Positions 29,785-30,635 of a stretch of DNA of 64,000 nt are shown piece after piece. The notes under the pieces were generated by a model. That model saw nothing but the letters and a program-made list of their open reading frames with translations, had not been told where the DNA came from and searched no databases. The first letter of the stretch is position 1; the number at the start of each line of letters is the position of its first letter. Made by a program: the position numbers and the translations under genes. Source of the stretch: Escherichia coli (GTDB taxonomy: Bacteria > Pseudomonadota > Gammaproteobacteria > Enterobacterales > Enterobacteriaceae); assembly GCF_003018255.1 (NCBI RefSeq), contig NZ_CP027440.1; one strand, given 5' to 3'.

Positions 29785-30599
29785 TTGCGTAAGAACTGAT
29801 TATAGATAGATGATAATAATTGTTTAGGTAATAGCCTGACTAATGAACGACCTAAAAATATTAATTTTGCACTTACCCCTTTATTAATGCCTAAATCAAC
29901 AATAAGTTTATAAAGTTCATATTCACTTTTGATATATTTTAATCCTTTTCTTCTATTGATCATTTCTTCGCCGGCACGTGCTAAAACTAATACATCATTA
30001 ACATTATCCATAGCGAAACCTGCGGCATAACAACGAAGCCACAAGTTATAGTCTTCCATAAGATAATGGTGGTTATAACCACCAATCTCAATAATTTTTT
30101 GTTTTCTAAACATTACAGTCATGTGATTAAAAGGATTTCGTTTTGCTATTGTTTTACTAATATTATCATAACCACATGGTACTTTTTTTAATTTACGTAT
30201 ATTGTTTTTTTCTGTAAACTCATCAACTGCCCCGCCAATTATTACTAATTCCGGATTACGAATAAACATCTTTATTTGTTTTTCGAATCGCTCAGGTAGA
30301 CAAATGTCATCAGTATCCATTCGTGCGACCAAATCATTCGAACATGCCTGTAGGCCAGCATTTAATGCCTTACCTAATCCAACATTCTCATTGAGTTCAA
30401 CTATTTTTAAAGGCAATTCTCTATCCCATTTTCTAACTACTCTCCATAATCCATTACTGATCGGACCGTCAATAACTGCAACTACTTCATCGATCATTGT
30501 TTTTTGTATCGCAAGACTTTTAAATGCCTCATCAAGATAAATTTCGTTTTCTTTAAAATATATAGATAATAAAACTGATATTTTTTCTATCTTTTGCAC
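29781..30599 (-). CDS. Glycosyltransferase family 2 (first gene of the O-antigen operon)
   Basis: 272 aa ORF; GT-A features (KISVLLSIY ... DTDD); the ORF track starts it at a GTG that lies within the ops element. Confidence 0.7.
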   Translation of the reverse strand: MQKIEKISVLLSIYFKENEIYLDEAFKSLAIQKTMIDEVVAVIDGPISNGLWRVVRKWDRELPLKIVELNENVGLGKALNAGLQACSNDLVARMDTDDICLPERFEKQIKMFIRNPELVIIGGAVDEFTEKNNIRKLKKVPCGYDNISKTIAKRNPFNHMTVMFRKQKIIEIGGYNHHYLMEDYNLWLRCYAAGFAMDNVNDVLVLARAGEEMINRRKGLKYIKSEYELYKLIVDLGINKGVSAKLIFLGRSLVRLLPKQLLSSIYNQFLRK

Positions 30600-30635
30600 G
30601 CTACCGCCCTTGGCTTAACAGCTACCAACACACTC
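30597..30635 (-). promoter_or_regulatory. JUMPstart element with ops (RfaH antitermination site) for the O-antigen operon
   Basis: Seen in sequence: minus strand reads gagtgtgttggtagctgttaagccaagGGCGGTAGCGTG; the 3' 12-mer matches the ops consensus GGCGGTAGCGTG (established knowledge). Confidence 0.8.

What the first reader, a model, noticed from the sequence alone, without database searches (positions are those of the whole stretch)
30597..30635. ops/JUMPstart element overlaps the predicted GTG start of the first O-antigen gene
The ops 12-mer GGCGGTAGCGTG (minus strand) ends in the GTG that the ORF track uses as the start codon of the first glycosyltransferase. The only in-frame stop upstream is five codons away and there is no ATG nearby. 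Either the antitermination signal doubles as the ribosome-binding region and start codon, or the real start is unconventional. ops is usually well upstream of the first gene, so this is an unusual geometry.
Basis: seen in the sequence. Interest (0 to 1): 0.4.

Follow-up and report, generated by a model that had tools for sequence, protein, structure and literature searches.

The report
Antitermination signal ends in start codon
In the E. coli O185 O-antigen gene cluster, the last three bases of the RfaH-loading signal (ops, inside the JUMPstart element) are the only workable start codon of the first gene; this is a rare zero-spacer extreme of a known layout and a natural test case for how RfaH hands a ribosome to its mRNA.

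Summary
Window 30635-30597 (minus strand) is a full-length JUMPstart (Rfam RF01707, 56.1 bits). Its 3' end is a perfect ops 12-mer, GGCGGTAGCGTG (30608-30597). The final GTG opens a 272-aa GT2 glycosyltransferase ORF, the first gene of the E. coli O185 O-antigen cluster.

The GTG is very probably the real start, for these reasons:
- An in-frame TAA lies six codons upstream, and the next canonical start is Met35.
- Homologues begin 1-7 residues before the conserved K-[FI]-S-V-L motif.
- An AlphaFold model (pLDDT 91.6) puts strand beta1 at residues 7-13.
- RefSeq/PGAP and the metagenome gene calls all use this GTG.
- The junction is identical in all five O185 sequences compared.
- The JUMPstart supplies a Shine-Dalgarno-like AAGGGCGGU (-8.1 kcal/mol, 4 nt before the GTG).

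Gaps of 10, 26, 37 and 39 nt occur in other E. coli serogroups, and 12 of 55 Enterobacterales loci are within 50 nt. Full overlap, however, was found nowhere else in about 108 JUMPstart loci.

Most likely the sequence is used twice in turn: as non-template DNA it pauses RNA polymerase and loads RfaH, then as RNA it serves as ribosome-binding site and start codon. Translation was not tested. This is a new variant of a known kind, of moderate interest.

The parts
30651..30678 (-). Promoter-like site: -35 TTTAAA (30678-30673), 16-nt spacer, -10 AATAAT (30656-30651). It predicts a transcription start near 30644, just 5' of the JUMPstart.
   Evidence: Consensus scan, 9 of 12 matches. This is a prediction only. 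No terminator-like site lies between galF and the JUMPstart, so read-through from galF would also transcribe ops.
30597..30635 (-). JUMPstart element, 39 nt: GAGTGTGTTGGTAGCTGTTAAGCCAAGGGCGGTAGCGTG.
   Evidence: Rfam RF01707, 56.1 bits (gathering score 35), full-length, E = 3.3e-12. Identical in five O185 sequences.
30610..30628 (-). JUMPstart RNA hairpin: stem UUGGU (30628-30624) pairs with GCCAA (30614-30610). The loop contains the in-frame TAA.
   Evidence: Structure line of the Rfam alignment. The same stem appears in the minimum-free-energy fold of the 5' region.
30615..30617 (-). In-frame stop codon TAA, which closes the reading frame upstream of the GTG.
   Evidence: Translation and sequence.
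30597..30608 (-). ops element GGCGGTAGCGTG, a 12 of 12 match to the consensus GGCGGTAGnnTG. RNA polymerase pauses at T11 (30598).
   Evidence: Exact match. The pause position and the role of ops are taken from PMC5995543 and PMC11001881.
30603..30610 (-). Shine-Dalgarno-like stretch AGGGCGGU. It pairs with the 16S 3' end over 7 bp with one C-U mismatch; GGCGG occupies the GGAGG position 4 nt before the GTG. It overlaps ops nucleotides 1-6.
   Evidence: RNA duplex energy -8.1 kcal/mol, 7th strongest of 29 gene starts in the window. The standard CCAGGGG JUMPstart variant gives -8.0.
30597..30599 (-). GTG start codon, which is ops nucleotides 10-12.
   Evidence: It is the only canonical in-frame start before codon 35. 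It is used by PGAP in RefSeq and by the gene calls on ENA and Logan contigs.
29781..30599 (-). First O185 O-antigen gene: a 272-aa GT2-family glycosyltransferase of the AmsE/WbbD/EpsE-like group.
   Evidence: PF00535 at 1.7e-22. 3220 homologues of 264-283 aa. Alignment A1. AlphaFold model with pLDDT 91.6.
30495..30497 (-). Next in-frame ATG (Met35), the only downstream canonical alternative start. Using it would delete beta1 (residues 7-13) and alpha1 (residues 19-30).
   Evidence: Invariant residues S12, Y14, E17, S28 and Q32 lie upstream of it.
56528..56539 (-). Comparator: the second ops/JUMPstart in the window, in the colanic-acid (wza) leader, 179 nt before the wza ATG at 56349.

Best explanation
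The GTG formed by ops nucleotides 10-12 is the genuine start codon of the first O185 glycosyltransferase. The same 20 or so nucleotides are used twice, one use after the other. (1) As non-template DNA in the transcription bubble, GGCGGTAGCGTG pauses RNA polymerase at T11 and loads RfaH, as at any ops site. At that moment the future ribosome-binding site and start codon are still inside the RNA:DNA hybrid. (2) After polymerase escapes and has moved roughly 30 nt further, the RNA copy emerges just 3' of the JUMPstart hairpin. There AGGGCGGU acts as a Shine-Dalgarno-like element and GUG as the initiation codon, followed by an A-rich, unstructured coding start. RfaH is still bound to the polymerase and may add protein-mediated ribosome capture through S10. 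The layout probably arose when low-GC serogroup-specific DNA was joined directly to the 3' edge of the conserved JUMPstart, so that the ops GTG replaced or coincided with the gene's own start codon. What is shown: the sequence anatomy, the lack of any other start, the fit of the N-terminus to the protein family, and the SD-like complementarity. What is inferred: actual initiation at the GUG, RfaH dependence, the position of the transcription start, and the evolutionary route.
For: - Element identity: the JUMPstart and ops are perfect matches.
- No other start: the frame is closed by TAA six codons upstream, and there is no other ATG, GTG or TTG until codon 35.
- Homologue N-termini: 23 homologues (45-54% identity) begin 1-7 residues before the conserved K-[FI]-S-V-L-M-S-L-Y motif; the O185 protein has 5, so it is of normal length.
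- Family models: position 2 of the NCBIfam EpsE model aligns to residue 6, and solved GT2 chains 3bcv and 5tze align from their residue 2 to query residues 2-6.
- Structure: the AlphaFold model has beta1 at residues 7-13 and alpha1 at 19-30, so Met35 cannot be the start of a functional enzyme.
- Gene callers: PGAP in two RefSeq genomes and the ENA and Logan gene calls all use this GTG.
- Conservation: the junction is identical and the ORF intact in five O185 sequences, with more synonymous than non-synonymous changes (6:0 and 5:3).
- Ribosome-binding potential: the anti-SD duplex is -8.1 kcal/mol, 7th of 29 starts in the window, and the 5' region has no significant structure (z = -0.4).
- Related geometry: a 32%-identical homologue is also the first gene in another serogroup, with its ATG only 10 nt after ops, so very close geometry is tolerated.
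- Expression: O185 is an established serogroup with a determined O-antigen structure containing Ribf (PMC7685785), so the cluster is expressed.
Against: - There are no protein-level, ribosome-profiling or transcript-mapping data for this junction.
- The SD-like stretch has a central mismatch, and its 4-nt spacing is at the short end of the usable range.
- The SD-like stretch and the GTG are present in essentially every JUMPstart because ops requires them. The common G variant gives -8.0 kcal/mol and the A variant is widespread. Their presence here is therefore not an adaptation and does not prove use.
- All gene callers would pick this GTG simply because nothing else is available.
- I could not show that this particular transferase is required for the O185 repeat unit.
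Confidence: 0.75

Rival explanations
1. The GUG is the start codon, but the ribosome is delivered mainly by RfaH (KOW domain binding S10) rather than by the SD-like stretch, whose complementarity is a by-product of the ops sequence. This differs from the best explanation only in how the 30S subunit is recruited.
For: RfaH is reported to recruit ribosomes to leaders that lack SD elements, and SD-less reporters depend on it (PMC5995543, PMC7819879). The G-rich stretch is dictated by ops and is the same in clusters where it is certainly not an RBS. Other O185-specific genes have weak SD complements, from +0.9 to -5.3 kcal/mol.
Against: A -8.1 kcal/mol anti-SD duplex placed 4 nt from a GUG would be expected to act on any free 30S subunit whether or not RfaH is present. 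Some first genes after ops have strong SDs, for example O127 galE with AAGGAGG, so the statement that RfaH operons lack SDs is not universal.
Confidence: 0.3
2. Translation starts at an unconventional near-cognate codon just downstream, such as AUA at codon 4 or 7, and the GTG is incidental.
For: Many homologues start only one residue before the K-[FI]-S-V-L motif (MKFSVL, MKISIL), so a start at about codon 5 would still give a complete fold. The corresponding O185 codons are GAA AAA ATA.
Against: No ATG, GTG or TTG is there. By general knowledge, AUA initiates at well under 1% of AUG efficiency in E. coli. The SD-like stretch would then be 13-22 nt away, which is too far. A GUG with an SD-like partner lies in frame immediately upstream.
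Confidence: 0.07
3. The ORF is a decaying or untranslated remnant. A deletion removed its real 5' end and ribosome-binding site, and the apparent GTG start is an accident of the junction.
For: The serogroup-specific low-GC DNA begins exactly after the GTG, as expected for a deletion or recombination junction. There is no direct evidence of expression.
Against: The N-terminal length is normal for the family and nothing is missing. The ORF is intact at 819 nt in five independent sequences, with synonymous changes outnumbering non-synonymous ones. The model folds confidently as a complete GT-A domain. Catalytic-region residues, including the D95/D97/D98 cluster, are invariant in the alignment.
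Confidence: 0.06

Closest known systems
Standard JUMPstart/ops leaders of E. coli O-antigen and colanic-acid clusters (Rfam RF01707; Hobbs and Reeves 1994; RfaH/ops system)
   Same: The same 39-nt element with the same perfect ops, in the same place between galF and the first serogroup-specific gene. It presumably has the same function of loading RfaH.
   Different: In other clusters a spacer separates ops from the first start codon: 179 nt for wza, about 77 nt for rmlB-first clusters, 37 nt in O127, 39 nt in NZ_CP024138.1 and 26 nt in O113. hlyC is 634 nt away (PMC6775461). In O185 the spacer is -3 nt: the start codon is inside ops.
First glycosyltransferase of the O-antigen cluster in E. coli 2017.15.01CC (NZ_AP021890.1, locus L003; also metagenome locus L241)
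   Same: A homologous GT2 enzyme (32% identity, N-termini co-linear) is the first gene directly after the JUMPstart, so its ribosome-binding region must also overlap ops.
   Different: It has its own ATG 10 nt after ops. The ops GTG there opens only a 2-codon frame (GTG GAT TGA). PGAP mis-annotates the gene as starting upstream and reading through the JUMPstart.
RfaH-dependent expression of SD-less reporters, and the 'ribosome capture between ops and start codon' model (Burmann 2012 as cited; Zuber 2024, PMC11001881)
   Same: The ops-RfaH module sits directly upstream of a gene whose translation is thought to be helped by RfaH.
   Different: [quoted passage not shown] Here no such interval exists, and an SD-like element is present.
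Superficieibacter electus locus L015 and metagenome loci L155, L174 and L192
   Same: The ops GTG is in frame with the first long ORF.
   Different: Each has a recognisable family-typical start further downstream: ATG at codon 18, or the ClpV MENPAILL, Wzm MARSGLEV or ManC MLLPVIMAGG starts. The ops GTG is therefore not needed there.

Membership tests
JUMPstart element (Rfam RF01707) | Match to the 38-position covariance model above the gathering score, including the 5-bp hairpin | tested here: met
   56.1 bits against a gathering score of 35, model positions 1-38 of 38, at 30635-30597 on the minus strand.
JUMPstart element (Rfam RF01707) | Location in the 5' leader of a polysaccharide gene cluster | tested here: met
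   It lies between galF (30760-31653) and the first O185 gene. The cluster contains wzx and wzy, named 'O185 family' by PGAP.
ops element (RfaH recruitment site) | 12-nt consensus GGCGGTAGnnTG on the non-template (coding) strand | tested here: met
   GGCGGTAGCGTG, a 12 of 12 match, on the same strand as the operon.
ops element (RfaH recruitment site) | Transcribed, i.e. downstream of the operon promoter | tested here: inconclusive
   There is only a 9-of-12 promoter-like match at 30678-30651, and no terminator after galF. No transcript data are available.
ops element (RfaH recruitment site) | RfaH-dependent pausing and antitermination | not testable with these tools
   This needs an rfaH mutant or in vitro transcription.
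ops element (RfaH recruitment site) | Position in an untranslated leader upstream of the first start codon, as described in the literature ('within 100 nts', '50+ nts') | tested here: not met
   Ops nucleotides 10-12 are the start codon of the first gene. The literature description is from PMC11001881. This is a habit of known examples, not a mechanistic requirement.
GT2 glycosyltransferase (Pfam PF00535; AmsE/WbbD/EpsE-like) | Pfam domain match and GT-A fold with the conserved aspartate cluster | tested here: met
   PF00535 at 1.7e-22 over residues 13-169. D95, D97 and D98 are invariant in alignment A1. The AlphaFold model has pLDDT 91.6 with alternating beta/alpha elements.
Canonical SD-led bacterial translation start | ATG, GTG or TTG preceded at about 4-9 nt by a sequence complementary to the 16S 3' end | tested here: met
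   GTG, with AGGGCGGU pairing at -8.1 kcal/mol and GGCGG ending 4 nt before the GTG. Actual use was not tested.

The most novel reading that the evidence does not exclude
The 3' end of the JUMPstart is a working ribosome-binding site plus start codon. An RfaH-loaded polymerase can therefore hand a ribosome to an initiation site that is part of ops itself. That would set the minimum ops-to-start distance at zero and show that no spacer and no 'scanning toward a start codon' is needed. A bolder extension is that the SD-like-plus-GUG module found in every JUMPstart is a general ribosome landing pad (a cryptic initiation site) in other RfaH operons too.
Probability: 0.12. Interest if true: 0.7.

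Novelty: new variant of a known kind. Interest (0 to 1): 0.4.

Why it matters
1. RfaH mechanism. [quoted passage not shown] O185 is a natural zero-spacer case, and several serogroups have gaps of 10-40 nt. Any model of RfaH-mediated ribosome loading has to work when the start codon and ribosome-binding site are still inside the RNA:DNA hybrid at the ops pause.

2. A clean experiment. Ops position 10 is a free "n" in the consensus. GTG-to-ATG or GTG-to-CTG therefore changes start-codon strength without touching ops, so the two functions can be separated genetically.

3. Annotation. Start calls next to JUMPstart elements are error-prone. PGAP reads one homologue straight through the JUMPstart, adding 31 spurious residues. 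It also annotates small antisense "hypothetical proteins" over JUMPstarts at group 1 capsule loci.

4. Evolution. The case illustrates the 3' edge of the JUMPstart as the boundary between conserved and serogroup-specific DNA.

Tried and rejected
- O185-specific adaptation of the JUMPstart. I asked whether the G-to-A change (CCAAGGG instead of CCAGGGG) improves the SD. Rejected: the A variant occurs in 67 of 129 loci, including O127, and the anti-SD energy is the same (-8.1 against -8.0 kcal/mol).
- A conserved short upstream ORF starting at the ops GUG in other clusters, possibly coupled to the first gene. Rejected at this level. In 59 loci the GUG frame is no longer than the other two frames (median 12, 15 and 8 codons), and its stop is no more often near the gene start (11, 14 and 11 of 59).
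- Other 'distance 0' cases. Apparent hits at 0, 5 and 8 nt in the genome and metagenome samples were all over-extended ORFs with family-typical starts further downstream.
- Structured 5' UTR occluding or regulating the start. The fold is not better than shuffles (z = -0.4).
- A closer relative of the O185 transferase with a native upstream region, which might reveal the ancestral start. None exists in the protein database between 99% and 54% identity, and both contigs encoding the 99% protein have the same junction.
- Literature that could not be used. The promoter-mapping paper for O7 (PMC107806) and the supplement of the O-antigen review are not held. I therefore could not obtain a mapped transcription start or the O185 repeat-unit structure to count the required transferases. 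Literature searches found no earlier mention of a JUMPstart overlapping a start codon.

Full report
**Context.** The window is an E. coli chromosomal segment. On the minus strand it carries the colanic-acid cluster, gne, galF (30760-31653), an O-antigen cluster, and then gnd, ugd and wzz. The 1.1 kb around the finding matches six of 5,426 complete E. coli genomes over its full length at 98.8% identity. In those genomes PGAP names the wzx and wzy genes 'O185 family'. O185 is an established serogroup whose O antigen contains D-ribofuranose (PMC7685785).

**The observation.** GGCGGTAGCGTG lies at 30608->30597 on the minus strand. A second exact copy is at 56539->56528, 179 nt before wza. The ORF 30599->29781 (272 aa) begins with the GTG that is ops nucleotides 10-12. 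The frame is closed upstream by TAA (30617-30615), which sits in the loop of the JUMPstart hairpin. The next in-frame ATG, GTG or TTG is ATG at codon 35 (30497-30495).

**Is the GTG the real start?**
- The product is a GT2 glycosyltransferase (PF00535, 1.7e-22) with thousands of homologues of 264-283 aa.
- In an alignment of 23 homologues at 45-54% identity, all begin 1-7 residues before a conserved K-[FI]-S-V-L-M-S-L-Y motif. The O185 protein has five residues (MQKIE) before it. S12, Y14, E17, S28 and Q32 are invariant.
- Position 2 of the NCBIfam EpsE model aligns to residue 6. Solved GT2 chains 3bcv and 5tze align from their residue 2 to residues 2-6.
- An AlphaFold model built from the alignment (pLDDT 91.6) has beta1 at residues 7-13 and alpha1 at residues 19-30. 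Starting at Met35 would remove the first beta-alpha unit of the nucleotide-binding fold.
- PGAP, in two RefSeq genomes, and the gene calls on ENA and Logan contigs all use the same GTG.
- The 170 nt upstream and the first 30 nt of the gene are the same in five O185 sequences apart from one substitution upstream of the JUMPstart. The ORF is intact in all five, and synonymous changes outnumber non-synonymous ones (6:0 against L002, 5:3 against L001).

The gene therefore looks functional, and the ops GTG is the only canonical codon from which a complete enzyme can be made.

**Ribosome-binding potential.** The 20 nt before the GTG pair with the 16S 3' end at -8.1 kcal/mol. The pairing is AGGGCGGU, seven pairs with one C-U mismatch, and GGCGG sits in the GGAGG position 4 nt before the GTG. 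This is the 7th strongest of 29 gene starts in the window and is stronger than every other O185-specific gene except galE. The stretch lies just 3' of the JUMPstart hairpin. The 5' region has no significant structure (z = -0.4), and the coding start is A-rich. This is not an O185 adaptation: the common CCAGGGG variant gives -8.0 kcal/mol, and the CCAAGGG variant is widespread (67 of 129 loci, including O127). Every JUMPstart ends in an SD-like stretch plus GUG because ops requires those bases. O185 is the case where that module is in frame with, and immediately abuts, a gene.

- In E. coli the gap between the end of ops and the first start codon is 179 nt for wza, about 77 nt for rmlB-first clusters, 39 nt in NZ_CP024138.1, 37 nt in O127, 26 nt in O113, and 10 nt in NZ_AP021890.1. 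hlyC is 634 nt away (PMC6775461).
- In 55 Enterobacterales species-level loci, found with the JUMPstart 17-mer, the distance ranges from 23 to 634 nt with a median of 165, and 12 of the 55 are within 50 nt.
- A second sample of 53 JUMPstart loci from metagenomes gave a median of 83 nt. All its apparent 0-8 nt cases were over-extended ORFs with recognisable starts further downstream.
- The NZ_AP021890.1 case is instructive. Its first gene is a 32%-identical homologue with a co-linear N-terminus and an ATG 10 nt after ops. PGAP extends it upstream through the JUMPstart.

Close apposition is therefore common, and the ribosome-binding region sometimes overlaps ops. Complete overlap with no alternative start was seen only in O185.

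**Mechanism.** Ops acts as non-template DNA. It pauses polymerase at T11, forms a hairpin and loads RfaH, and the RfaH-bound complex is hyper-paused with a 10-11 bp hybrid and stalls again at C13 (PMC5995543, PMC11001881). In O185 the SD-like stretch and the first two bases of the start codon are therefore inside the RNA:DNA hybrid at the pause, and no ribosome can engage them. Only after escape and roughly 30 more nucleotides of transcription can a 30S subunit occupy the site; that figure is my estimate from general knowledge of the polymerase and 30S footprints. The two functions are sequential and do not conflict physically.

[quoted passage not shown] In O185 there is no such interval. If RfaH contributes, it must hold the ribosome until the site emerges, or the SD-like element does the work alone. 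I cannot distinguish these two possibilities.

**Origin.** The serogroup-specific, low-GC DNA (23-40% GC) begins immediately after the GTG, and the galF side is conserved. The simplest route is a recombination or microhomology deletion at the 3' edge of the JUMPstart that put codon 2 of the transferase directly after the ops GTG. No intermediate relative exists in the databases searched, so this remains inference.

**Rejected ideas.**
- An O185-specific SD-improving substitution.
- A conserved upstream ORF initiated at the ops GUG in other clusters.
- A structured leader.

**Verdict.** The feature is real and correctly located. The 'dual use' reading is the best supported, at about 0.75, but it is untested experimentally. 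It is a rare extreme of a known arrangement rather than a new kind of element. Its main value is as a natural zero-spacer test case for RfaH-coupled translation initiation, and as a caution for start-codon annotation next to JUMPstart elements.

Noticed in passing
L009, L036, L040, L043, L047, L061, L077 (also L010, L035, L058, L075, L076, L084, L097); Legionella-type loci L023, L087, L100, L113: The JUMPstart 3' 17-mer CCAAGGGCGGTAGCGTG recurs in at least 12 Akkermansiaceae, Verrucomicrobiota and Opitutia contigs. It is preceded by GGTTT, a variable hairpin with apparently compensatory changes, and ATCGA. It usually lies 17-46 nt upstream of a long ORF, some of which look like polysaccharide genes (for example, L077 starts [14 protein letters not shown]). 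Rfam RF01707 does not reach threshold on these loci. The RfaH evolution paper I checked does not mention these taxa in its main text. This may be an undescribed ops/JUMPstart-like family outside Proteobacteria.
   Followed up: partly
window 28404-29177 (-); L001 10624-11391: An intact 255-257 aa ORF lies between the HAD-IB phosphatase gene and wzy in the O185 cluster. It has no Pfam or NCBIfam match and is left unannotated by PGAP in NZ_CP098211.1. Its length differs by 6 nt between the window and L001. O185 contains ribofuranose and no Ribf precursor genes are known, so this ORF together with the adjacent HAD phosphatase is a candidate for Ribf incorporation.
   Followed up: partly
L003 1449-2363 (NZ_AP021890.1 2813920-2814834): PGAP annotates the first glycosyltransferase as starting 83 nt upstream of the end of ops and translating the JUMPstart itself (...SALVAVKPGAVAW...). 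The family-consistent start is the ATG at L003:1542, 10 nt after ops. Between ops and that ATG lies a chain of overlapping mini-frames (GTG GAT TGA / ATG GAA TGA / ATG AAA...) with TGATG and ATGA stop-start overlaps. This may be chance.
   Followed up: partly
L027, L095, L121 (genomes); L155, L210 (metagenomes): A JUMPstart-type ops lies 23-36 nt upstream of an ~885-aa ORF that begins ME(H/N)(Q/P)(S/A)(A/I)(V/L)LLRRLNP(F/Y)CAR, which looks like a ClpV/TssH type VI secretion ATPase. It occurs in Enterobacter, Pantoea and Acerihabitans. This suggests RfaH control of a T6SS gene in these genera.
   Followed up: no
L004 1491-1613 and L005 1491-1618 (NZ_CP041955.1, NZ_CP048322.1): RefSeq carries small antisense 'hypothetical protein' CDSs (about 40 aa, one marked frameshifted) lying across the JUMPstart upstream of wzi at group 1 capsule loci. 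These are probably annotation artefacts.
   Followed up: no
L127 1344-1383 (O127:H6 E2348/69) and L128: The first gene after ops in O127 (galE) has a strong canonical SD (AAGGAGG, 7 nt before the ATG). [quoted passage not shown]
   Followed up: no
L130 925-940 and L133 921-935: Two E. coli JUMPstart copies end in non-consensus ops variants (GGCGGTAGCATA and GGCGGTAGCTAT) that lack the T11-G12 pause dinucleotide. Even so, they sit 28 and about 45 nt before the first gene (an ABC transporter permease and a HAD-IIA hydrolase).
   Followed up: no
window 26153-27100 (-): The mechanical ORF for the second glycosyltransferase starts at a GTG (315 aa) and overlaps wzy by 64 nt. PGAP calls a shorter version (897 nt in L001, 12751-13647). 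This is another uncertain start in the cluster.
   Followed up: no
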